Part shown: one piece after another, positions 2,642 through 64,000 of the stretch | How positions within the stretch are numbered: the first letter of the stretch is position 1 | Layout of the letters: each line of letters starts with the position of its first letter | NCBI GenBank assembly: GCA_040757295.1 | Contig: JBFLXH010000007.1 | Span: 35,142 to 99,141 of the forward strand | Source: Bacillota bacterium | GTDB taxonomy: Bacteria; Bacillota; PH28-bin88 | Direction: 5' to 3' | DNA length: 64,000 bases | Notes under the pieces: model-generated | The model's input: only the letters and a program-made list of their open reading frames with translations | Told to the model about the DNA's origin: nothing | The model's database searches: none | Translations under genes and position numbers: made by a program

Positions 2642-3199
2642 ATGCTCAAAAGAAGTGTTTTCGGAAAACTTTTAGGAGTTTGCCTTGTTGGAGTACTGTT
2701 TGTGCTTGTTGTTTTAGGGGTTTTGCGTTGGGCATATCCATTGGAATATGTTGATATTATCCGCCTTGAGGCCTGGGAAAAAGGGCTTGATCCTTATTTA
2801 GTGGCCGCTGTTCTACGAGTAGAAAGCAGATTTGATCCTGAAGCTGTTTCTCCTAAAGGAGCAAGGGGTTTGATGCAGTTAATGCCCGAAACGGCCCAGT
2901 GGGTTGCAAAGCAGGCGGGTGTTAAATATCACCCGGACAAATTATTCGACCCGGGATACAATATAAAACTAGGAACTTGGTACTTGTCGGATTTGCTCCA
3001 TGAGTTTAACGGCAATATTTGGCTGGCATTAGCAGCATACAATGGGGGTCGTGGTAACGTCAGGCAGTGGCTTGCTTCCAGACGATGGCTTGGCGATGTG
3101 GAAACGCTTCACAAGATACCTTTTGCTGAAACCAGGCGATTTGTCCAGAAAGTTAGAATTACCTGGATAGTATACAATAACCTCTATCCTTTTTTATAA
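2642..3199 (+). CDS. lytic transglycosylase (SLT domain) with N-terminal membrane anchor
   Basis: SLT catalytic block VESRFDPEAVSPKGARGLMQLMPETA and an N-terminal TM helix. Confidence 0.8.
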   Translation: MLKRSVFGKLLGVCLVGVLFVLVVLGVLRWAYPLEYVDIIRLEAWEKGLDPYLVAAVLRVESRFDPEAVSPKGARGLMQLMPETAQWVAKQAGVKYHPDKLFDPGYNIKLGTWYLSDLLHEFNGNIWLALAAYNGGRGNVRQWLASRRWLGDVETLHKIPFAETRRFVQKVRITWIVYNNLYPFL

Positions 3200-3324
3200 C
3201 GCATAGGAAATCTATGCTCGTTTAAAAAATGTGGATAAGCCATAATTTCCGTAATGCGTTTCAACAAAATCAACCATATTAAGGATTCTTTCAAAACAAA
3301 GATTTTGTTTTTATCAGGTAACAC
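3196..3324 (+). repeat. intergenic repeat family 1, copy 1 (two-hairpin element)
   Basis: About 85-90% identical to elements at 48221, 52308 and 63905. Arms ACGCATAGGAAATCTATG / CATAATTTCCGTAATGCGT form hairpin 1; AACAAAATC / GATTTTGTT form hairpin 2. The 5' end (TTTTTATAAC) supplies the slt stop codon. Confidence 0.8.
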
Positions 3325-4607: not shown

Positions 4608-4714
4608 TATACTCGACAAGGGATAAAATTGCATTATCATAATGAAGCCGAGTATGAAATTCGCTTTGAGGCCACGGTAAATCAATGAATAATTAGTGGC
4701 CTCGCTCATTATAA
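4608..4714 (+). repeat. intergenic repeat family 2, copy A
   Basis: About 105 nt, near-identical to 59949-60054 (same strand) and to the reverse complement of 58808-58914. Contains the GAGGCCAC...GTGGCCTC hairpin and the outer pairing ATAATGAAGCCGAG / CTCGCTCATTAT. Confidence 0.8.
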
Positions 4715-4797
4715 AATAAGGGCGGTTATTAAATGAATGATAATATAGAAAAAGTTTCTATACTTCTCGTCTTAATTATATTAAGGGGTAGGTTATA

Positions 4798-16518: not shown

Positions 16519-16853
16519 GGGAATATCAAATATTTTAATATTCGGTCTCCGAGCTAATACCGCCTAACGGTTTTTCCTATGGGGTTTAAGCCTGAGCTCT
16601 TAGCTCACGGGGTACAATTACCGGAAACGGGTGTGCCTCCATTATTGGGAAGGAGATGCATTAGGTCGTTTATTATTTCGGCCCTGCTAATTCGTTCCTT
16701 AGCAGGGCCATTATTTATAAGCTGGGATGCAAAAATAAGGTTGTTTATCCTTTTATTAGGTTAGCTGCTTATTAGTACTGGGAGCGCCTTACTGCCTCAG
16801 CAAGTATATCCAAGTTATTAACAAAGCATCGTAGAAGCTTTGGGGGTGTTTTC

Positions 16854-17609
16854 GTGGAAGAAAAGTCCATGACTATTGTGGAACACTTAGAAGAATTGAG
16901 GAAGGTTGTCGTGGTTTCAATTATTGCTGTTTTGATTTCAACCATGGCAATTTTTTTCCTATTTCGCGATCTCCTATTTATGGCGGCCATCAAGCCATTA
17001 GCTGATTATGGCATACAGGTTGTTTTCATTGGGCCGACAGAAGCTTTGTTTTCCAAACTAAAAATAAGTATCTTCGCTGGCCTTTTTGTCTCTTTGCCGG
17101 TTATTTTATGGAAGATATGGAGCTTTGTGGTCCCGGCTCTGCATACCAATGAGCGGCGGTATGTTTACTTGTTAGTTCCTACATCCTTGCTGCTATTTCT
17201 GCTGGGAGTTTCTTTTGCTTACTTTACAGTTCTACAAGTCGCCACCAGATTCTTACTCGTAATTGCTGCTGAAGGATTAGAACCCATGATTACTGTAAGT
17301 AAATACATTTCTTTCTTAGTCTCCTTTTTACTCCCATTCGGGGCCGTTTTTGAGCTGCCATTAATAGTCTTTTTTCTGACCCATATTGGTATAATAAACC
17401 ACAGTTTTTTGGCAAGGAATCGTAGATATGCAATACTAATTACCTTTGTTTTAGCCGCTTTGTTAACACCCCCGGATGTAGTGTCCCAAACCCTCTTGGC
17501 TGGGCCAATGGTTATTTTATATGAAATCAGTATTTGGGTTTCCCGTGTGGCAAAACCTAAACCTAAGTTGGAAAATTCCGTTGCAAAAGAAACTTCCTCA
17601 AGGGATTAA
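16854..17609 (+). CDS. tatC: twin-arginine translocase subunit TatC
   Basis: Six-TM TatC family (EHLEELRKVVVVSIIAVLIS..., LTPPDVVSQ). ORF track start is GTG; the ATG at 16869 is also possible. Confidence 0.9.
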   Translation: MEEKSMTIVEHLEELRKVVVVSIIAVLISTMAIFFLFRDLLFMAAIKPLADYGIQVVFIGPTEALFSKLKISIFAGLFVSLPVILWKIWSFVVPALHTNERRYVYLLVPTSLLLFLLGVSFAYFTVLQVATRFLLVIAAEGLEPMITVSKYISFLVSFLLPFGAVFELPLIVFFLTHIGIINHSFLARNRRYAILITFVLAALLTPPDVVSQTLLAGPMVILYEISIWVSRVAKPKPKLENSVAKETSSRD

Positions 17610-46388: not shown

Positions 46389-46429
46389 GGGCACAAGCTT
46401 GATAAATCAGGTTGTGCCCCTTTTTCTTG
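46389..46429 (+). terminator. terminator after cotF-like genes
   Basis: GGGCACAA...TTGTGCCC hairpin followed by CTTTTTCTT. Confidence 0.6.
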
Positions 46430-46645
46430 GGGGGGGGGGTAAGATGCACGAGAGCGTCACTATTGTCGCTGCAAATTGTCTTAAATATGAAGCCATTACC
46501 TCTGCTCAGGGTTATGGTTTTTCCCTTTTAAATCATTTGCCGTACATTCCCAGATGCGATAGTTGCGTTAATTGGCTTGCTGGGACCTGTAATGAGTATG
46601 TAATTAACCAGCGAAAAATACTAATAACTAGAGTTTATTCGAGTA

Positions 46646-46673
46646 TTGACTTTTCTTCTCACCGTATTATAAT
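46646..46673 (+). promoter_or_regulatory. sigma-A promoter of glnA
   Basis: TTGACT, 16-nt spacer, TATAAT. Confidence 0.65.
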
Positions 46674-46694
46674 AAAGGGGAAAGAATAATAATT

Positions 46695-46771
46695 GGAACA
46701 ATGAAGTTCCTGAAATGAGGGCAAAGGCGCCCTTGGTAGTAAATTTGACTGCCAAGGGCGTTTTGTTTTTT
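46695..46771 (+). promoter_or_regulatory. glnA leader: ANTAR-type dual-hexaloop antiterminator target overlapping an intrinsic terminator
   Basis: Hairpin 1 is GGAAC-AATGAA-GTTCC. Hairpin 2 is GGGC-AAAGGC-GCCC (hexaloops with A1 and G4). The 3' arm of hairpin 2 is the 5' arm of the terminator CGCCCTTGG...CCAAGGGCG plus TTTTGTTTTTT. Confidence 0.6.
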
Positions 46772-46807
46772 GAAATCTGGTTTTAAAACAAAAGAAAGGG
46801 GATTGGC

Positions 46808-48145
46808 ATGAAAGCAAAACCATCAACTAAGCAAGAAGTAATGAGTTTGGCAAAAGAGTATGATGTCCAGTTCGTTCGCCTGCAGTTTACTGACATTTTC
46901 GGTGTGCTAAAAAATGTTGCTATTACCGTTGACCAGTTGGAAAAAGCCCTTGATGGTGAGTTAATGTTTGACGGGTCTTCTATTCATGGCTTTGTCCGAA
47001 TCGAAGAATCAGATATGTATCTTCGACCAGACCCAGCAACCTTCACCCTTTTTCCTTGGCGGCCACAGGAAGGAACAGTTGCTAGGTTAATTTGTGATGT
47101 TTATAATCCTGATGGGTCTCCTTTTGAGGGTTGTCCAAGACACATATTGAAATCCGCATTAGCTGAAGCTTCAGAAATGGGTTATACCATGAATGTGGGG
47201 CCTGAGGCTGAATTCTTTTTATTCCAGACAGACACCCATGGTCGGCCCACCTTAGAAACCCATGACCGTGCAGGCTATTTTGACCTTTCGCCTATTGATC
47301 AAGGGGAAAATGCACGCCGGGAAATCTGTTTGGCTTTACAAAAGATGGGTTTTGAAATTGAGGCTTCCCATCACGAGGTTGCGCCTGGACAGCACGAAAT
47401 TGATTTCAAATATGCAGACGCTTTAACTACAGCGGACAATATCGTGACCTTTAAGTTTGTTGTACGGACCCTCGCCCAACGACATGGACTACACGCCACA
47501 TTTATGCCTAAACCGATTTTTGGAATTAACGGCTCTGGCATGCATACCAATCAATCTTTAAGCAAAGACGGAATGAATGCCTTTTTTGATCCTACAGGTC
47601 CTTTGCAATTAAGCCAAATAGCGTATTATTATATTGGGGGCTTAATGAAACATGCCAGAGGTTTTGCAGCCATTACAAATCCGACTGTCAACTCGTATAA
47701 GCGGTTAGTGCCTGGTTATGAAGCTCCTGTTTATATTGCCTGGTCAGCTAGAAACCGTAGCCCTCTAATCCGTATTCCAGCTAAACGAGGGGCCTCTACC
47801 AGAGTTGAACTTCGCAATCCGGATCCGGCATGCAACCCGTACCTGGCAATTGCCGTAATGCTGAAAGCCGGGCTGGATGGTATTAAGAACCAGATTCAAC
47901 CGCCCCCATCAACAGACCGAAATATCTATCATATGGACGAGGAAGAACGGGTAAAAGCAGGTATCTTGAGCCTTCCTGGCAGTTTGGCAGAAGCGTTGGA
48001 AGAACTTTCTGCCAACGAAGTAATAAAAAGCGCTTTAGGCGAACATGTATTTAACCGGTTTGTTGAGGCGAAGAAGCTGGAATATGACGAATTTAGGATC
48101 CATGTAACCCAATGGGAAATTGATAAATACCTTACATTATTTTAA
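46808..48145 (+). CDS. glnA: glutamine synthetase type I
   Basis: 445 aa; the GSI beta-grasp and catalytic domains with conserved blocks ([42 protein letters not shown]). Confidence 0.95.
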
Positions 48146-48185
48146 ATTTGGTCGGTACATTGAAGTACCATTGAGCAGTGACGCT

Positions 48186-48220
48186 CGGCAAGGTTTTTTA
48201 CCTTGCCGGGCGTCTTTTTT
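48186..48220 (+). terminator. rho-independent terminator after glnA
   Basis: CGGCAAGGT-TTTTT-ACCTTGCCG followed by GGCGTCTTTTTT. Confidence 0.8.
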
Positions 48221-48372
48221 ATAACACATAGGAAATTATGCTCGTTTAAAAAATGTAGATAAGTCATAATTTCCGTAATGTGTTGCAACAAAATCAACCA
48301 CATTAAGTTTTTCAAAAGGAAGATTTTGTTCTAACACATAGGAAATTATGCTCGTTTTAAAAGATGTGGGTT
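48221..48372 (+). repeat. intergenic repeat family 1, copy 2 plus a partial tandem copy
   Basis: Full unit 48221-48330 and a second start (TAACACATAGGAAATTATGCTCGTTTTAAAAGATGTGG) at 48331-48372. Same two hairpins as copy 1, with compensatory substitutions. Confidence 0.8.
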
Positions 48373-48434
48373 CGAAAATACTCTTTAGGAGCATTAACGA
48401 GAAAACTTTAAATCATTGAGGGAGGCTAGATAAG

Positions 48435-49811
48435 ATGTCTAAAAAATGGATTAATCTTATGCGCACAGGTTTGTTAGGGGTGTTATTTTGGGTTCTTGCT
48501 GGGATTGCAGTGGCTGATACAGGGGACATAACTGCTGGGGAAATAGCTTTTGCGGTGGATACCCTTTGGACTCTTTTAGCAGGTTTTATGGTTTTTTTCA
48601 TGCATGCTGGATTTACCATGGTGGAAACCGGTTTTACTCGTGCAAAAAATGCAGTAAATATCATTATGAAAAATATTTTAACTATTTCCTCTGGAGTTAT
48701 TATTTTCTATGCTATTGGCTTTGCCATTGCCTTTGGGCCCTCGTTGGGCGGTTTTATAGGTACCAAGGGATTTGGCCTAATTGGTTTAGAAGGAGCAGAT
48801 TTTGGGGTGCCACTTACTGGCTTTTGGTTTTTCCAGGCAGTTTTCGCGGCTACAGCAGCTACGATTGTTTCCGGTGCTGTGGCTGAAAGAACCAAATTTA
48901 GTGCATATCTTTTATTCACTGTTATTATTACCTCGATAACTTATCCAGTGGTAGTGCATTGGGTATGGGGTGGGGGATGGCTGTCCGAACTTGGATTTGT
49001 TGACTTCGCAGGCTCAACGGTCGTTCATAGTGTTGGCGGGTGGTCTGCTCTGGTAGGCGCAGCTTTGGTTGGGGCAAGGATTGGTAAATATGGAACCAAG
49101 GGAGAGGTAAAAGCAATACCTGGCCATAACATACCTTTTGGCGCCCTGGGCGTGCTGATATTGTGGTTTGGCTGGTTCGGTTTTAATTGTGGTAGCACTT
49201 TGTCTGGGACAGATGAGGCCATTTCAAGCATAGCCGCGACAACAATTTTATCTGCCTCAGCGGCTACTGTTTCTGCCATGGCAATAACCTGGCTTAGGTA
49301 TGGGAAACCTGACATCAGTCTTACATTAAACGGTGCCTTGGGTGGGTTAGTAGGGATTACTGCTGGCGCTGCTTCGGTCACCCTCGGAGGCTCTTTACTG
49401 GTAGGGTTGTTTTCAGGGGCTTTGCTAGTATTGGCAGTAGAGTTTATTGATCAAAAACTAAAAATAGACGATCCCGTAGGGGCTATATCTGTTCATGGTG
49501 TGTGCGGCGCTTTTGGAACATTGGCAGTTGGGCTGTTTTCTTCAGAAGCCGGTTTATTTTACGGTGGTGGTACCAGCCTTTTGGCAATTCAGGCGGCTGG
49601 CGTTTTTGCCGTGGGTATTTGGGTAATTCTGATCAGCTTCTTAGCCTTTAAATTAATTGGCTGGGTAGTAGGGTTAAGGGTATCGCCAGAAGAGGAGATA
49701 GAGGGACTTGATGTGGGAGAACACGGTATTTCGGCTTATGGAAATTTGGCGGGCAAAACTGGCCATCCCATTGGAGAAGCTATTGTTGCAAATACCCCAA
49801 TCAGTATCTAA
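48435..49811 (+). CDS. amt: ammonium transporter (Amt family)
   Basis: 11-TM Amt/MEP signature blocks ([23 protein letters not shown]); 458 aa. Confidence 0.9.
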
Positions 49812-49830
49812 TAGGCGGAGGTGCTTTATA

Positions 49831-50169
49831 ATGAAAAAGATCGAGTGTATTTTTAGGCCTTCGAAACTTGAGCAGGTGAAGGAAGCCTTAAGTATGTATG
49901 GTATCAACGGAATGACTGTAACCCATGTCATTGGATGTGGCATACAGAAAGGTAAAACAGAGCTTTATCGCGGGAGTGAATACAGCCTTGATCTCCTGCC
50001 TAAAGTAAAGATAGAGATAATAATCAAAGACGAATTAGTTAGACAGGTAATTGACATTATTTCTTCTGCGGCAAAGACAGGTCAAATAGGTGATGGGAAA
50101 ATATTTGTGTATGATGTAGAAACAGCTATTCGCATTCGAACGGGAGAAACAGGCGATGATGCCATCTAA
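49831..50169 (+). CDS. glnK: nitrogen regulatory protein P-II
   Basis: 112 aa; [13 protein letters not shown]...[23 protein letters not shown] signatures. ATG 49831 with RBS GGAGGTG (the ORF track start at 49708 is an upstream artefact). Confidence 0.9.
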
Positions 50170-50215
50170 TCGTAAGGAAGACTCTTTGCCATAATAAAAA
50201 TTTCCCATAGACAAA

Positions 50216-50253
50216 AAACGGGCGCACTGGCAATCAGGCGCCCGTTTTTTTTT
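50216..50253 (+). terminator. rho-independent terminator after glnK
   Basis: AACGGGCGC...GCGCCCGTT hairpin followed by TTTTTTTTTG. Confidence 0.8.
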
Positions 50254-50388
50254 GTTGTTTCTGGATAGAATACAAAGAACAAAGTTGTTATTAAGAGAAT
50301 TAACGTAAATTTTATATTTTGGCTTTCCTGGCACAACTATAAATTTAACAATTTGCTGTTATTGTGGTAGTCAAAGGGGGTTTTTTCA

Positions 50389-51096
50389 ATGCATACAGCT
50401 GATGCCCAGAGTCTTTGTTTGTCGTTGAAGTGGGCAGGTATTAAAAAAATAATATTTTCAACCCCTCTTTTTGGCGATGATTGCGAGCAGGAAAATACCC
50501 ATATTTTCTGTAATCATCAAGCGCTTCAAATATTGGCAAATGACGGTTATGAAGGACCTACAAGCCAACTGAAAAAATATTTAATCCAATTAGACAAAGG
50601 AGTACAATGGGCAGATAGAGGAAAAGGAAGTATTAATCACCACTATAATCCAAGTTCTGGTAAAGGGCTGTGGCACTGGGCATCTGCTGCGGCTACCTGT
50701 GCCTTTTTTTACTCAAAAGCCTTTGGGCTGTGGGAAAGAGGATTTTTTGAACAAGCAATGTTTTTTTTAGGAGCCAGTACTCATTTGATACAGGATGTGT
50801 GCGCGCCCCACCATGCCCGCTGCCAAGTTCTAGACGGGCACCAGCGTTTCGAACGTTGGGTAAGCAACAGGGTTCATAGTTTTAGGGTTTTTAGGAATGG
50901 TATTTACCAGTTAAAAAGGCCGCCAGAGGAATGGATATCTATAAATGCCACGGAGGGCTATCAGGGATACTCTCTTGTCAGACTAGGCAACAGTAGCAAG
51001 GACTACCACCAAGCGGCATCTCATTTGCTCGCATTGGCACAGAGAAGCACTGCGGGTTTTTGGCTGTCATTTCTCGAAAAAGCCAGAATAATCTAG
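50389..51096 (+). CDS. zinc-dependent phospholipase C family protein (no signal peptide)
   Basis: Zn_dep_PLPC-like motifs (WHWASAA, HLIQDVCAPHH); 235 aa; cytoplasmic by sequence. Confidence 0.6.
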   Translation: MHTADAQSLCLSLKWAGIKKIIFSTPLFGDDCEQENTHIFCNHQALQILANDGYEGPTSQLKKYLIQLDKGVQWADRGKGSINHHYNPSSGKGLWHWASAAATCAFFYSKAFGLWERGFFEQAMFFLGASTHLIQDVCAPHHARCQVLDGHQRFERWVSNRVHSFRVFRNGIYQLKRPPEEWISINATEGYQGYSLVRLGNSSKDYHQAASHLLALAQRSTAGFWLSFLEKARII

Positions 51097-51132: not shown

Positions 51133-52311
51133 ATGCCTTTGGCAGATATTTTACTGCTGACAGCCCCTTTTGGGGGGGGACATCTTCATGCTGGTATGGC
51201 ATTGGAACATGCCTTTCAGCGATTTTTCCCTGAGGTAAAAGTAGCCTCATTTGATTTTGTTAAGGAAATAAGTCCATGGCTGGCAGGGTCCGCTAACTCC
51301 CTGTTGCTTGCTACCATAAGGTTTAAACCGGAATTATACGGGTCTTTTTACAACTATGTAGACAGGCTACCCCATGATTCATCTCTGCAAAAAGGATTGA
51401 ATCGAATAGGCTTAAACAAAGGCGCAAAACTTTTAGAGGATATTCAACCGCAGGTGGTGGTTTCTTTTTATCCGACCCCCTCCCAGGTTGTAGGAGATCT
51501 CAAGGGTAAGGGACAGTTTAAGGGCCAATTGGTGACAGTTATAACTGATTATGCTGTAAATAAGCAATGGATTCATCCGCTGACAGACCTGTACTTGGTT
51601 GCGGCTACTGAGGTAAAAAATGAGCTGACAGCCTGCGGGGTATCCGATGATAAAATCAAAGTGACCGGTATTCCTATTTCTCTGGATTTTGCTCAGGAAA
51701 AGATCAGAAATGAACTTTTAAAAACCCACGGTTTAGATCAGAGCCTCCCTCTTTTGCTGATCTGCTGTGGGGCATTTGGCGTTATCAGAGGTATTGAGGA
51801 GTTATGCAGAGAAATATCCTCTTACAAGGCCTCCCTGCAAAGCGTTATAATTGCTGGTAGGAACTTTCGGTTGCAACGGCGTCTGGAGGCTATTGCCCAA
51901 AGAGCTAAACACCCTTTTTATGTATATGGGTATGTTAAAGATATGGCTGATTGGATGGCAATGGCAGACATTGTTGTTAGTAAATCTGGCGGTTTAACTG
52001 TAAGTGAGGCATTAGCGTGTGAGCTTCCAATGGTAATTATTCCTCCTCTTCCAGGTCAAGAAACAGCTAATGCCCAATACCTTCTTAACTATGGAGCAGC
52101 TGTCTGTTGCGACGATATTTCTCAAATTCCACAAGTAATATTGCATCTGTTGACAAAACCTTCAGAGATGCAAAAAATGCGATGCTCGGCACGAGAGATA
52201 AAAAAACCCTTTGCAGCTAAACATGCGGCTTCAGTGATAGCTGGAATGCTGTCTTGTATTCATTCAGAAAGGGAAGCACAGAAACTGATGGTCGGAGCAT
52301 CTTTTTTATAA
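51133..52311 (+). CDS. diacylglycerol glycosyltransferase (MGDG synthase / UgtP-like, GT28 family)
   Basis: MGDG_synth N-terminal domain (LLLTAPFGGGHLHAG) and a C-terminal GT-B domain; 392 aa. Confidence 0.75.
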   Translation: MPLADILLLTAPFGGGHLHAGMALEHAFQRFFPEVKVASFDFVKEISPWLAGSANSLLLATIRFKPELYGSFYNYVDRLPHDSSLQKGLNRIGLNKGAKLLEDIQPQVVVSFYPTPSQVVGDLKGKGQFKGQLVTVITDYAVNKQWIHPLTDLYLVAATEVKNELTACGVSDDKIKVTGIPISLDFAQEKIRNELLKTHGLDQSLPLLLICCGAFGVIRGIEELCREISSYKASLQSVIIAGRNFRLQRRLEAIAQRAKHPFYVYGYVKDMADWMAMADIVVSKSGGLTVSEALACELPMVIIPPLPGQETANAQYLLNYGAAVCCDDISQIPQVILHLLTKPSEMQKMRCSAREIKKPFAAKHAASVIAGMLSCIHSEREAQKLMVGASFL

Positions 52312-52410
52312 CACAAAGGAAATTAGGCTCGTTTAAAATATTTGGATAAGTCATAATTTCCGTTTCAACAAAATCCACCACACTAAGTGTTCCAAAGGAA
52401 GATTTTGTTC
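52308..52410 (+). repeat. intergenic repeat family 1, copy 3 (hairpin-1 3' arm partly deleted)
   Basis: ATAACACAAAGGAAATTAGGCTCGTTTAAAATATTTGGATAAGTCATAATTTCC ... GATTTTGTTC. The 5' end supplies the stop codon of the glycosyltransferase gene. Confidence 0.75.
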
Positions 52411-52446
52411 TGATATGTTCCTTAATATTTACCTGGAGGTGTTTTT

Positions 52447-53859: not shown

Positions 53860-54133
53860 GAGCTTTGCAAAATATTGGCTGAAACAGTCAATCCATCAGA
53901 TCGCTGAGTTTCCTTTTCTTAAAAAGGAAAGCGGGGGACCTAATTTTTTGGGGCTAATCCGGCGAAAATTGGCCATAAAATGGCCAAAATTGCGCTGGAC
54001 GGGTGAATCCTCTTCGATCCGAGCCCGTCAACTAACCTCGTAAGCGTGGGAGAAGGAGGTGGATTGGGTTTAGCAGCAGCATTGCTTGTCGATGTTGTTT
54101 TGCTGCTTTTCCCACCCAAGGAGATGCCTCCTT
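53860..54133 (+). promoter_or_regulatory. structured ~270-nt leader ending in an intrinsic terminator (54103-54133), immediately upstream of ODH-family/B12-domain operon; candidate riboswitch or attenuator of unknown class
   Basis: Hairpins TTTCCTTTT-CTTA-AAAAGGAAA, TTGGCCAT-AAA-ATGGCCAA and GACGGG..CCCGTC. Then CCCAAGGAG-ATGC-CTCCTTGGG plus TTATTTTTT, 25 nt before the ORF. Confidence 0.5.
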
Positions 54134-54157: not shown

Positions 54158-55375
54158 ATGGGTGCAAGCATGGAAGAAAAGGAGGGATGTAGGGTGAAAA
54201 ATCAACGGAAACAAAAGCCTGGTGAGCGCAGAGTCAATTTATTTCCGTTAGGTTCCCATCACTCGTTTCCGCGCTTCAGCATTATCGGTGCAGGTAACGG
54301 GGGTATGGCCATGGCAGGGCATTTGGCTTTGGCTGGTTTTCCCGTTAAGCTGTTTAATCGGAATCCGGCTAAACTAGCGGGGGTAATTCATGAGGGAGGT
54401 ATTCGTTTAAAAGGCCAGATTGAAGGTTTTGCTCATATTCCCAAAGTTACGAGCGATCCACGGGAGGCTGTCGCAGATGCAGATGTTTTGATGGTTGTTG
54501 TGCCTGCTTCCGGTCACAGAGTAATAGCAAAAATCCTTGCACCTTATCTAAAGGACGGCCAGATTGTAGTCTTGAACCCCGGGCGTACTCTGGGGGCGTT
54601 GGAGTTTGAGCACATAATTGTCGAAGCAGGATGCCAGGCCAGCGTAGTTGTCGCCGAGGCACAAAGCCTCTTGTATGCCAGTAGGATAACCAATGCGGCG
54701 GAGGTTACTATTTTTGGGATAAAAAATACGGTACCTGTTGCGGCTATACCAGCCTGGCAAACTGAGCGGGTCACCAAAATCCTGAATTTGGCCTTTCCTC
54801 AGTTTATACAGGCTGCCCATGTGCTTCAAACCAGTTTGGACAACGTTGGCGCTGTACTGCATCCCGCCCCGACTATTTTAAATATGGCCAGAATTGAGTC
54901 GGGTGAAACCTTTGAGTATTACCATCAAGGAATTACACCGAGGATTGCTCGGATTGTTGAACAACTGGATCAGGAACGATTATCCATTGCTAAGGCATTA
55001 GGCTTGGAGACAATGAGCACCAAAGAGTGGTTGGAAAAAGCCTATGGAGCAACAGGAGAAGATTTGTACGAGGCAATCCTAAACAATGTTGGTTACAGCG
55101 GGATACTAGCTCCTAGCAGCATGCCAACCAGGTATATTACGGAGGATGTGCCAACTGGTCTTGTGCCTTTGGCAGCCCTTGGCGAATTGACCGGTGTTGC
55201 CACGCCTACTATAAACAGCCTAATCAATATGGCTTCTTTTGCTGAAGGTGCCGATTATTGGACAGAAGGCAGGAGTTTGCAAAACTTAGGGCTTGCCGGT
55301 AAAGGCCTGGAGGAAATCTTTGCATATATTCTGGAAGGGAGGGAAGGCCTATTTCCAAGAGTATCAAACGTCTAA
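54158..55375 (+). CDS. NAD(P)-dependent opine dehydrogenase family oxidoreductase (octopine/nopaline DH-like); start uncertain
   Basis: Rossmann IIGAGNGGMAMAGHLA plus a C-terminal ODH-type domain. Alternative GTG start at 54195 after AAGGAGGG. Confidence 0.65.
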   Translation: MGASMEEKEGCRVKNQRKQKPGERRVNLFPLGSHHSFPRFSIIGAGNGGMAMAGHLALAGFPVKLFNRNPAKLAGVIHEGGIRLKGQIEGFAHIPKVTSDPREAVADADVLMVVVPASGHRVIAKILAPYLKDGQIVVLNPGRTLGALEFEHIIVEAGCQASVVVAEAQSLLYASRITNAAEVTIFGIKNTVPVAAIPAWQTERVTKILNLAFPQFIQAAHVLQTSLDNVGAVLHPAPTILNMARIESGETFEYYHQGITPRIARIVEQLDQERLSIAKALGLETMSTKEWLEKAYGATGEDLYEAILNNVGYSGILAPSSMPTRYITEDVPTGLVPLAALGELTGVATPTINSLINMASFAEGADYWTEGRSLQNLGLAGKGLEEIFAYILEGREGLFPRVSNV

Positions 55376-59948: not shown

Positions 59949-60054
59949 TATACTCGGCAAGGGTAAAATTGCTTTATCTAATGAAGCCGAGTATGAAATT
60001 CGCTTTGAGGCCACGGTAAATCAATGAATAATTAGTGGCCTTGCTCATTATAAA
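59949..60054 (+). repeat. intergenic repeat family 2, copy C
   Basis: TATACTCGGCAAGGGTAAAATTGC...GAGGCCACGGTAAATCAATGAATAATTAGTGGCCTTGCTCATTATAAAA; about 95% identical to copy A. Confidence 0.8.
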
Positions 60055-60155
60055 AGATTAATACACCGAGAATAAAAATAGCAGGAGAAAGAAGTCTACA
60101 GGTCGAATAGGATTGTAAATAATTCCGGACGCCGTTTGGCATCGCCGGACAGGGG

Positions 60156-63832: not shown

Positions 63833-63904
63833 AACTGCCTCCCCCTTTTTCTCGGTATAAAATAATAATAGCACACCAGCGTTCTTTGACGATAAATTTT
63901 TTTG

Positions 63905-64000
63905 AAACACATAGGAAATTAGGTGCGTTTAAAAATGTGGATAAGTTATAATTTCCGTAATGTGTTTCACCATAATCAACCTTAAATTCTTTCGCAAGGA
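63905..64000 (+). repeat. intergenic repeat family 1, copy 4 (runs off window end)
   Basis: AAACACATAGGAAATTAGGTGCGTTTAAAAATGTGGATAAGTTATAATTTCCGTAATGTGTTTC...; the same hairpin-1 architecture. Confidence 0.7.

What the first reader, a model, noticed from the sequence alone, without database searches (positions are those of the whole stretch)
46695..46771. glnA leader carries an ANTAR-type two-hexaloop antiterminator motif competing with an intrinsic terminator
Between the glnA promoter (TTGACT-16-TATAAT, 46646-46673) and the start codon lie two short hairpins with hexanucleotide loops: GGAAC-AATGAA-GTTCC and GGGC-AAAGGC-GCCC. Both loops have A at position 1 and G at position 4, the consensus reported for RNA targets of ANTAR-domain antiterminators (NasR/AmiR/EutV class; NitR-type regulators of clostridial nitrogen genes). 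The 3' half of hairpin 2 (GCCC) is simultaneously the 5' arm of a strong terminator (CGCCCTTGG ... CCAAGGGCG followed by TTTTGTTTTTT). Binding of hairpin 2 would therefore prevent terminator formation. This predicts that glnA, and possibly amt-glnK downstream, are controlled by transcription antitermination through an ANTAR protein encoded elsewhere.
Basis: partly seen in the sequence, partly recalled or inferred. Interest (0 to 1): 0.55.

Follow-up and report, generated by a model that had tools for sequence, protein, structure and literature searches.

The report
ANTAR antiterminator leader before glnA
The untranslated leader of the glutamine synthetase gene carries a two-hairpin RNA site that, when bound by an ANTAR-type regulator, should stop a built-in terminator from forming; this is a good new example of a nitrogen-control device already described in related bacteria, not a new kind of system.

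Summary
Downstream of a near-consensus promoter lie P1 (GGAAC-AATGAA-GTTCC, 46695-46710) and P2 (GGGC-AAAGGC-GCCC, 46719-46732). P2's 3' arm is the 5' arm of a strong intrinsic terminator ending at 46771, 36 nt before glnA.

A covariance model built only from relatives' leaders finds two significant hits in the window. One is this site (37.7 bits, E 3e-8).

The motif shows covariation. It recurs next to glnA, amt/P-II and glutamate-synthase-type genes in Peptococcaceae-like relatives, and it co-occurs with response-regulator-ANTAR genes (Fisher p = 2e-12).

The window holds no ANTAR gene. Two REC-ANTAR genes sit on another contig from the same sample, in the same NCBI accession series and with matching composition, so very probably in the same genome.

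Ramesh et al. 2012 already listed such sites upstream of glutamine synthetase and ammonium transporter genes in Desulfotomaculum, Pelotomaculum and Heliobacterium. Geobacter GnfR, tested experimentally, is proposed to recognise CAGGCAANGGCGCC, nearly identical to P2 here.

Verdict: interpretation supported; new member of a known kind; modest interest.

The parts
46646..46673 (+). sigma-70-type promoter of glnA (TTGACT, 16 nt, TATAAT)
   Evidence: Read directly. It matches 11 of 12 positions and is the best promoter-like site in the region. Both hexamers are conserved in orthologous leaders L086-L088 while the spacer differs.
46695..46710 (+). P1 hairpin: GGAAC, hexaloop AATGAA, GTTCC
   Evidence: It matches the family consensus gGuAC-AAuGnn-GUaCc. 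Orthologues carry the compensatory version GGAGC...GCTCC.
46711..46718 (+). 8-nt linker between P1 and P2
   Evidence: It falls within the 5-12 nt range of the E. faecalis eut sites (PMC3369931) and within the range seen in the family alignment.
46719..46732 (+). P2 hairpin (antiterminator): GGGC, hexaloop AAAGGC, GCCC
   Evidence: GGCAAAGGCGCC matches 12 of 14 positions of the sequence proposed as the Geobacter GnfR site, CAGGCAANGGCGCC (PMC2995071). Alone it is worth only -7.1 kcal/mol.
46724..46771 (+). intrinsic terminator: stem 46724-46764 (G+C-rich core 46728-36 with 46752-60) and U-tract 46761-46771; its 5' arm contains the 3' arm of P2
   Evidence: With P1 and P2 enforced, only a 6-bp A/U-rich stem remains and it is detached from the U-tract.
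46808..48145 (+). glnA, type I glutamine synthetase (445 aa), the regulated gene
   Evidence: Pfam PF03951 and PF00120. Identical to NCBI MEW6661539.1 / MFZ5689086.1.
48154..48186 (+). second dual-hexaloop element: P1 GGTAC-ATTGAA-GTACC (48154-69), 3-nt linker, P2 GAGC-AGTGAC-GCTC (48173-86)
   Evidence: My own scan. Covariance model hit at 17.9 bits, E = 0.005, the second-best hit in the window. It deviates from the family at position 2 of both loops, and its linker is the shortest seen.
48180..48220 (+). second intrinsic terminator: GACGCTCGGCAAGGT, loop TTTTT, ACCTTGCCGGGCGTC, then T6; it overlaps the 3' arm of the second P2
   Evidence: (15 pairs, 10 of them G-C).
48435..49811 (+). amt, ammonium transporter (458 aa)
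   Evidence: Pfam PF00909.
49831..50169 (+). glnK-type P-II protein (112 aa); an intrinsic terminator at about 50218-50253 follows and ends the unit
   Evidence: Sequence. PF00543 is recorded for the identical gene on L082.

Best explanation
The glnA leader is a protein-dependent transcription attenuator of the ANTAR class.

Proposed mechanism:
1. Transcription starts at the promoter at 46646-46673.
2. By default the nascent RNA folds into the strong terminator (46724-46771) and RNA polymerase stops 36 nt before glnA.
3. When a response-regulator-ANTAR protein is active, presumably as a dimer under nitrogen limitation, it binds the two hexaloops of P1 and P2.
4. Binding locks P2's 3' arm (GCCC) away from the terminator stem, so polymerase reads into glnA.

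A second, weaker copy of the same device directly after glnA (48154-48220) gates read-through into amt-glnK. The three genes therefore form one unit with two checkpoints in series.

Shown here: the anatomy, the mutual exclusivity of the two folds, family membership of the RNA, its conservation and covariation, and its co-occurrence with ANTAR genes.

Inferred: which protein binds, that binding occurs at all, and that the signal is nitrogen status.
For: Anatomy and energetics:
- The structure is exact at the stated coordinates.
- The terminator fold is -37.8 kcal/mol. P1 plus P2 give -13.2 and P2 alone -7.1, so the antiterminator needs a stabilising factor. Enforcing P2 destroys the terminator.

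Family membership:
- Model R1 was built from 44 sites in relatives, with the window left out. It hits 46694-46733 at 37.7 bits (E 3e-8) and 48153-48187 at 17.9 bits (E 0.005). Nothing else in the window scores above 10.4 bits.
- In the family alignment 89% of cells are paired and 9 of 11 pairs show changes on both sides. The two outer P1 pairs, which my scan did not require, are paired in 37/43 and 42/43 sequences with 4-6 pair types each.
- Close orthologues (GlnA clustered at 90% identity or more) keep the promoter hexamers, P1 with an A-U to G-C compensatory change, loop positions A1, A2 and G4, and the terminator with compensatory changes.

Link to ANTAR proteins:
- R1 gives 87 hits at E < 0.1 in the 80 glnA loci, all but one in L001-L044. 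The seed hits lie in intergenic regions before glnA, after glnA, or before REC-ANTAR genes.
- Presence correlates with a REC-ANTAR gene in the same locus (27/3/6/44, p = 2e-12).
- Two REC-ANTAR genes, P0002 and P0113, share the sample (SRR32167787) and both NCBI accession series (MEW666..., MFZ568...) with the window's GlnA and Amt. Their contig has a tetranucleotide correlation of 0.95 with the window.

Literature:
- A1 and G4 of both loops, the stems and the linker length are needed for EutV action. Table S2 lists such sites with overlapping terminators upstream of glutamine synthetase, amt/P-II and ANTAR regulators in Desulfotomaculum, Pelotomaculum and Heliobacterium (PMC3369931).
- In Geobacter, deleting gnfK or gnfR caused premature termination of the nifH transcript. 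Similar terminator-like leaders carrying CAGGCAANGGCGCC precede nifEN, nifX, glnK and amtB (PMC2995071).
Against: - No ANTAR gene lies in the 64-kb window. The link to the REC-ANTAR contig is circumstantial: same sample, same accession series, similar composition. It is not a closed genome.
- No expression or binding data exist for this organism or for any Peptococcaceae-type glnA leader that I could find.
- The second element departs from family-invariant loop positions (ATTGAA, AGTGAC). Its 3-nt linker matches the length that drastically reduced EutV-dependent induction.
- Leaders next to the candidate regulator genes (L084) have a good P2 and terminator but no recognisable P1. The recognition rules in this genome may therefore differ from the textbook dual-hairpin rule.
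- The 44 seed sequences were selected by a scan that required A1, G4 and the inner 3-4 pairs of each stem, so only the outer pairs and the independent hits are unbiased.
Confidence: 0.8

Rival explanations
1. The terminator is a constitutive attenuator or plain terminator, for example the end of the upstream small-ORF/CotF transcript, and the two hexaloop hairpins are incidental.
For: The small conserved ORF 46444-46689 ends just upstream, so the terminator could also end that transcript. Short hairpins with ANNGNN loops are common: about 1.4 dual-hairpin pairs arise by chance per shuffled window.
Against: A near-consensus promoter lies between the ORF's conserved part and the hairpins and is conserved in orthologues. 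No promoter-like site was found between the terminator and glnA, so glnA transcription must pass through it. The whole P1-P2-terminator combination is expected 0.055 times per window. The hairpins match a family model at E 3e-8 and are kept by compensatory changes.
Confidence: 0.05
2. The dual hairpin is a real regulatory RNA, but it is read by something other than an ANTAR protein, such as another RNA-binding protein or a small ligand like glutamine.
For: No binding experiment exists. The regulator is not encoded next to this glnA. The element has no Rfam family.
Against: The conserved positions are exactly those required by ANTAR proteins: A1, G4, the closing pair and the paired stems (PMC3369931). 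P2 is nearly identical to the sequence proposed as the GnfR site. The element co-occurs with REC-ANTAR genes and often sits immediately beside them. Two 4-5-bp hairpins offer no plausible ligand pocket. No glutamine-riboswitch or other riboswitch model matches.
Confidence: 0.07
3. glnA is controlled mainly at initiation by a GlnR/TnrA-type repressor, as in Bacillus, and the leader structure plays only a minor role.
For: GlnR/TnrA control of glnA is the classical Firmicute model (my own background knowledge).
Against: No TGTNA-N7-TNACA site, even allowing one mismatch, lies within 46400-46810 or 48146-48435. Window-wide counts equal chance (27 found against 23 expected).
Confidence: 0.04

Closest known systems
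Predicted ANTAR target RNAs upstream of glutamine synthetase, ammonium transporter/P-II, glutamate synthase and ANTAR-regulator genes in Desulfotomaculum acetoxidans, D. carboxydivorans, Pelotomaculum thermopropionicum and Heliobacterium modesticaldum (Ramesh et al. 2012, PLoS Genet, PMC3369931, Table S2)
   Same: Same architecture: two hairpins with hexaloops carrying A1 and G4, and a terminator overlapping P2. Same target genes and the same bacterial group. The loci I fetched from Desulforamulus, Pelotomaculum, Heliorestis and other relatives carry the same consensus.
   Different: This organism is a different, uncultured Bacillota lineage whose best GlnA match among the fetched genomes is 84%. 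Its glnA is not adjacent to the regulator gene, and two elements in series flank glnA ahead of amt-glnK. Those published sites are predictions too, not experimentally tested.
GnfK/GnfR two-component antitermination of nitrogen-fixation genes in Geobacter sulfurreducens (Ueki and Lovley 2010, PMC2995071)
   Same: A REC-ANTAR response regulator acting on nitrogen genes. [quoted passage not shown] The window's P2, GGGCAAAGGCGCC, matches 12 of its 14 positions.
   Different: Geobacter is a proteobacterium and uses RpoN promoters under GnfL/GnfM control. Here the promoter is sigma-70-like, and no cognate kinase is visible next to the candidate regulators. glnA is not among the Geobacter genes named as carrying these leader terminators.
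EutV/EutW control of the eut genes in Enterococcus faecalis (Ramesh et al. 2012; structural work in PMC8934654)
   Same: The mechanistic template: a phosphorylated REC-ANTAR dimer binds a dual-hexaloop motif that is mutually exclusive with a terminator. A1, G4, the closing pairs and the linker length are all required.
   Different: A different pathway (ethanolamine utilisation), a different signal, and different stem sequences.
NasR / nasF leader (Klebsiella oxytoca) and AmiR / amiE leader (Pseudomonas aeruginosa)
   Same: ANTAR-domain antiterminators of nitrogen-related operons that use the same two-hairpin hexaloop site.
   Different: Their sensing domains differ: a NIT domain in NasR, and a pseudo-receiver domain with the AmiC partner in AmiR. 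Their targets are nitrate assimilation and amidase genes, not glnA.

Membership tests
ANTAR target RNA (dual-hexaloop antiterminator, as defined by Ramesh et al. 2012) | Two stem-loops, each with a stem of at least 3 base pairs | tested here: met
   P1 has 5 bp (46695-99 with 46706-10) and P2 has 4 bp (46719-22 with 46729-32). The second element has 5 bp and 4 bp.
ANTAR target RNA (dual-hexaloop antiterminator, as defined by Ramesh et al. 2012) | Hexanucleotide loops with A at position 1 and G at position 4 in both hairpins | tested here: met
   The loops are AATGAA and AAAGGC. The second element has ATTGAA and AGTGAC.
ANTAR target RNA (dual-hexaloop antiterminator, as defined by Ramesh et al. 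2012) | Short linker that places the two loops close together (5-12 nt in eut; 3 or 14 nt impaired EutV-dependent induction) | tested here: met
   The glnA leader has an 8-nt linker. The second element has only 3 nt, at the unfavourable extreme.
ANTAR target RNA (dual-hexaloop antiterminator, as defined by Ramesh et al. 2012) | Intrinsic terminator whose 5' arm overlaps P2, so that the two folds are mutually exclusive | tested here: met
   The terminator at 46724-46771 shares 46724-46732 with P2. Enforcing P2 leaves no functional terminator. The same holds at 48180-48220.
ANTAR target RNA (dual-hexaloop antiterminator, as defined by Ramesh et al. 2012) | Match to a covariance model of bona fide family members, with covariation supporting the stems | tested here: met
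   Model R1, built from relatives only, scores 37.7 bits (E 3e-8) and 17.9 bits (E 0.005). Covariation is shown and orthologous compensatory changes. Caveat: the seed comes from my own scan, not from the published alignment. Rfam holds no such family.
ANTAR target RNA (dual-hexaloop antiterminator, as defined by Ramesh et al. 2012) | An ANTAR-domain protein (PF03861) encoded in the same genome | tested here: inconclusive
   None is in the window (tblastn E > 0.9). Two REC-ANTAR genes lie on contig SRR32167787_2744 from the same sample. They share both NCBI accession series with the window's GlnA and Amt, and their contig has a tetranucleotide correlation of 0.95 with the window. This makes the same genome very probable but does not prove it.
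ANTAR target RNA (dual-hexaloop antiterminator, as defined by Ramesh et al. 2012) | Binding by the ANTAR protein and signal-dependent read-through of the terminator | not testable with these tools
   This needs gel-shift assays, in vitro transcription or reporter assays.
GnfR-type site (Geobacter nitrogen-fixation leaders) | Conserved sequence CAGGCAANGGCGCC upstream of and overlapping the terminator | tested here: met
   The window has AGGGCAAAGGCGCC at 46718-46731. Twelve of 14 positions are identical, including the whole GGCAANGGCGCC core.
GlnR/TnrA operator (Bacillus-type glnA control) | TGTNA-N7-TNACA palindrome at the promoter | tested here: not met
   No site with one mismatch or fewer lies in 46400-46810 or 48146-48435.
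Known riboswitches and leaders in Rfam 15 (glutamine riboswitch, T-box, PyrR site and others) | Score at or above the family's gathering threshold | tested here: not met
   No hit reaches its gathering score in the leader. The best sub-threshold matches are microRNA models and the PyrR site, which simply pick up the terminator hairpin.

The most novel reading that the evidence does not exclude
The genome may run a two-tier ANTAR circuit. Canonical dual-hairpin sites sit in series at glnA and amt-glnK: a strong site, then a deliberately weak one with a 3-nt linker and off-consensus loops. That arrangement would turn on glnA first and the transporter and P-II genes only at higher regulator activity. 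Meanwhile the leaders inside the regulator/glnA/glutamate-synthase cluster (L084) keep only P2 and the terminator, with a degenerate P1. This hints at a single-hairpin recognition mode, or at a division of labour between the two REC-ANTAR paralogues.
Probability: 0.2. Interest if true: 0.45.

Novelty: new member of a known kind. Interest (0 to 1): 0.27.

Why it matters
The result assigns a concrete post-initiation control mechanism to the central ammonium-assimilation genes (glnA, amt, glnK) of an uncultured spore-forming Bacillota lineage. It also names candidate regulators, MEW6662718.1 and MEW6662723.1. It adds orthologous, covariation-backed support to predictions from 2012 that, as far as I could find, remain untested for glnA in Peptococcaceae-type bacteria. 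The practical uses are better annotation of nitrogen regulons in these genomes and a compact, well-defined RNA-protein pair for testing. It does not change what is known about ANTAR systems.

Tried and rejected
- Rfam at gathering thresholds over the window, and a permissive scan of the leader, gave no relevant family. Only terminator-shaped chance matches appeared.
- A regex and tblastn search for an ANTAR gene inside the window found none.
- GlnR/TnrA boxes are absent near glnA and amt.
- I first suspected that the 40-nt direct repeat between the second terminator and amt (48222-48260 and 48333-48370) was a regulatory switch. It is part of a dispersed intergenic repeat with 5 copies in the window, so I rejected it as part of the mechanism.
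- I tried to link contig L084 to the window's genome through that dispersed repeat. L084 holds no copy, which is uninformative.
- Model R1 gives only weak hits (E about 0.1) on the L084 leaders because P1 is degenerate there.
- The third hit of my own scan in the window (32053, between tRNA genes) is made of A/U and G-U pairs and R1 does not score it. I treat it as chance.
- The look-up of encoding contigs did not reveal the name of the long source contig.

Full report
**1. The observation.**
- A promoter, TTGACT (46646-51), 16 nt, TATAAT (46668-73), is the best sigma-70-like site between 46300 and 50400, matching 11 of 12 positions.
- P1 follows: GGAAC-AATGAA-GTTCC (46695-46710).
- Then come an 8-nt linker and P2: GGGC-AAAGGC-GCCC (46719-46732).
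- A terminator follows, with its core CGCCCTTGG (46728-36) pairing with CCAAGGGCG (46752-60), and then TTTTGTTTTTT (46761-71).
- The glnA start codon is at 46808.
- Pfam confirms glnA (46808-48145) and amt (48435-49811). A 112-aa P-II gene lies at 49831-50169.

The leader folds far better than shuffled sequence (-37.8 kcal/mol, z = -7.1).

**2. Is it more than chance?**
I scanned for two ANNGNN hexaloop hairpins (at least 5 and 4 bp), a linker of 1-15 nt, and an overlapping terminator.
- Dinucleotide shuffles of the window give 0.055 hits on average, and none of 200 shuffles gave two or more.
- The real window gives three hits.
- Two of them flank glnA. The third (32053, between tRNA genes) is made of A/U and G-U pairs and fails the family model.

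**3.
Nine nucleotides after the glnA stop codon lies another copy of the device.
- P1 is GGTAC-ATTGAA-GTACC (48154-69).
- A 3-nt linker follows.
- P2 is GAGC-AGTGAC-GCTC (48173-86).
- P2's 3' arm lies inside a 15-bp terminator (48180-48214), which is followed by T6.

What looks like the glnA terminator is therefore itself built as an ANTAR-type attenuator in front of amt-glnK.

**4. Energetics.**

| Element | Terminator fold | P1 + P2 only | P2 alone |
|---|---|---|---|
| glnA leader | -37.8 | -13.2 | -7.1 |
| glnA-amt spacer | -38.2 | -12.1 | -5.5 |

Values are in kcal/mol. With P1 and P2 enforced, only a short stem remains and it is detached from the U-tract. The default state is therefore termination. 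The antiterminator cannot win without an external stabiliser, which is the logic of a protein-dependent switch.

**5. Relatives.**
Eighty glnA loci were fetched from reference genomes.
- The best match is 84% GlnA identity, to Clostridiales bacterium PH28_bin88.
- The next are Peptococcaceae/Desulfotomaculia-type genomes, Thermincola, and the heliobacteria.

My scan found the same architecture in many loci from L002 to L044, immediately upstream of glnA. It also found it after glnA and before a 190-200-aa gene located upstream of glnA. Pfam identifies that gene as a response-regulator receiver domain plus an ANTAR domain.

The consensus is striking:
- P1: gGuAC-AAyGnn-GUaCc
- P2: GGC-AAyGrn-GCC, with C-G closing pairs in both hairpins

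**6. Covariation.**
The alignment holds 44 sites and excludes the window.
- 89% of cells are paired, against 76% in column shuffles and 28-44% when the partners are slid.
- 9 of 11 pairs show changes on both sides.
- The covariation score is 0.505, against 0.22 in shuffles.

My scan required A1, G4 and the innermost 3-4 pairs of each stem, so those positions carry no independent weight. The unbiased evidence is the two outer P1 pairs, which were not required. They are paired in 37/43 and 42/43 sequences, with 6 and 4 pair types respectively.

**7. Independent membership test.**
Model R1 was built from that alignment and run over the whole window without speed filters.
- 46694-46733: 37.7 bits, E = 3e-8.
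- 48153-48187: 17.9 bits, E = 0.005.
- Next best: 10.4 bits, E = 0.5.

Over the 80 loci it gives 87 hits at E < 0.1, all but one in L001-L044. These include sites that were not in the seed, such as the orthologous glnA leader of the syntenic locus L001 (26 bits).

Loci with a hit and loci with a REC-ANTAR gene overlap as 27/3/6/44 (Fisher p = 2e-12).

**8. Orthologous leaders.**
Three contigs whose GlnA clusters with the window's at 90% identity or more (L086-L088) share the gene order upstream of glnA.
- They keep both promoter hexamers.
- P1 carries a compensatory A-U to G-C change (GGAGC...GCTCC).
- The P2 stem is identical. Its loop changes only at positions 3 and 5 (AATGTC).
- The terminator carries compensatory stem changes.

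The more distant L001 keeps P1 with another compensatory change, but its P2 loop reads GAAGGC, with G at position 1.

**9. Is there an ANTAR protein in this genome?**
There is none in the window. I searched the protein collection with the REC-ANTAR protein of PH28_bin88.
- Its closest relative, P0002 (67% identity), lies on an 11-kb contig (L084) from sample SRR32167787. That sample also holds exact copies of the window's glnA and amt contigs.
- L084 is a nitrogen cluster: REC-ANTAR (191 aa), glnA, a glutamate-synthase-like gene, glnA, REC-ANTAR (195 aa), then glutamate-synthase subunits.
- In NCBI the two regulators are MEW6662723.1 / MFZ5686835.1 and MEW6662718.1 / MFZ5686840.1.
- The window's GlnA and Amt are MEW6661539.1 / MFZ5689086.1 and MEW6661540.1 / MFZ5689085.1. 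In both accession series these lie about 1,200 and about 2,250 numbers from the regulators.
- L084 has 45.0% G+C against the window's 44.3%, and a tetranucleotide correlation of 0.95. Other loci gave 0.22-0.89.

I take this as very probable, not proven, evidence that the same genome encodes two candidate regulators. Both keep the receiver aspartate, whereas some relatives have Q or E at that position. No histidine kinase is adjacent.

**10. Comparison with what is known.**
- Ramesh et al. 2012 (PMC3369931) defined the ANTAR site as two hairpins of at least 3 bp, with hexaloops carrying A1 and G4 and a variable linker.
- They showed that A1, G4, stem pairing, the closing pairs and the linker length matter for EutV-dependent induction.
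- Their Table S2 already lists hits overlapping terminators upstream of glutamine synthetase, ammonium transporter/P-II, glutamate synthase and ANTAR response regulators. The species include Desulfotomaculum acetoxidans, D. carboxydivorans, Pelotomaculum thermopropionicum and Heliobacterium modesticaldum.
- Ueki and Lovley 2010 (PMC2995071) showed that deleting gnfK or gnfR in Geobacter causes premature termination of nifH transcripts.
- They found similar terminator-like leaders before nifEN, nifX, glnK and amtB, carrying the conserved sequence CAGGCAANGGCGCC.
- The window's P2 matches 12 of the 14 positions of that sequence.
- Rfam 15 returned no matching family for this leader.

The finding is therefore a correct identification of a new member of a known kind.

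**11. Rivals.**
- A constitutive terminator with incidental hairpins does not fit the family-model score, the conservation, or the position of the promoter.
- A non-ANTAR reader cannot be excluded without biochemistry. However, the conserved positions are the ones ANTAR proteins need, and the element travels with ANTAR genes.
- GlnR/TnrA boxes are absent.

**12. Caveats on the second element.**
It departs from family-invariant position 2 of the P2 loop, and its linker is the shortest seen. A 3-nt linker drastically reduced EutV-dependent induction. It may be a weaker site, which would give graded control, or a decaying one. About 215 nt separate it from amt, and most of that is an inserted dispersed repeat.

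Close relatives L086-L088 lack amt-glnK altogether. There the glnA stop codon and a remnant of P1 are fused to the sequence that follows glnK in the window.

**13. Verdict.**
The mechanism is inferred with about 0.8 confidence for the glnA leader and about 0.55 for the amt element. Novelty: new member of a known kind. Interest is modest.

Noticed in passing
window 3186-3283, 48210-48332, 48320-48386 (partial), 52297-52412, 63892-64000: A dispersed intergenic repeat of about 115-125 nt, all copies on the + strand. Its core ACACATAGGAAATTATGCTCG occurs 4 times within 3 mismatches against 0 expected. It has an internal inverted repeat (ACACATAGGAAATTATG / CATAATTTCCGTAATGTGT). One and a third copies fill the spacer between the second terminator and amt, and the short-read (Logan) assembly is broken between glnA and amt, where the repeat lies. 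It looks like a MITE- or REP-like element.
   Followed up: partly
window 4640-4716 and 59979-60055: A second repeat: two 77-nt copies that are 99% identical and 55 kb apart. Its nature is unknown.
   Followed up: no
L086 3838-4055, L088 3340-3557, compared with window 48146-50390: Close relatives (GlnA clustered at 90% identity or more) lack amt-glnK. The glnA stop codon plus a degenerate remnant of the second P1 is joined directly to the sequence that follows glnK in the window. The more distant L001 has glnA-amt-glnK, so a deletion in those relatives is the likelier history.
   Followed up: partly
L084 2524-2600, 7885-7960, 8613-8690: On the contig that carries the two candidate REC-ANTAR genes, three intergenic leaders have a strong P2 (GGGC-AATGRC-GTCC) overlapping a terminator-like hairpin but no recognisable hexaloop P1. 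The first hairpin has only a weak U-tract. Either P1 has decayed or recognition there differs from the dual-hairpin rule.
   Followed up: partly
L001 5885-5922 and 7425-7470: In the syntenic locus of Clostridiales bacterium PH28_bin88, some loops start with G instead of the canonical A: P2 of the glnA leader is GAAGGC, and P1 of the post-glnA element is GAAGGA. Two attenuator-like elements lie in tandem between glnA and amt.
   Followed up: no
window 46429-46439: A run of 11 G lies 4 nt upstream of the ATG (46444) of a small conserved Cys-rich ORF (46444-46689; motif PRCDxCVNW...GTC is shared with L001). The run could serve as its ribosome-binding region, be a slippage-prone tract, or be an assembly artefact.
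   Followed up: no
L013 5242-5847 and 2606-3178: In some relatives the REC-ANTAR proteins next to glnA have Q or E in place of the receiver domain's phospho-acceptor aspartate. This suggests pseudo-receiver regulators of the AmiR type. The two candidates for this genome keep the aspartate.
   Followed up: no
window 53892-54061 and 16535-16671: Rfam finds a c-di-AMP riboswitch (76 bits) upstream of gene 54158-55375. It also finds a molybdenum-cofactor riboswitch (63 bits) upstream of the gene cluster that starts at 16854.
   Followed up: no
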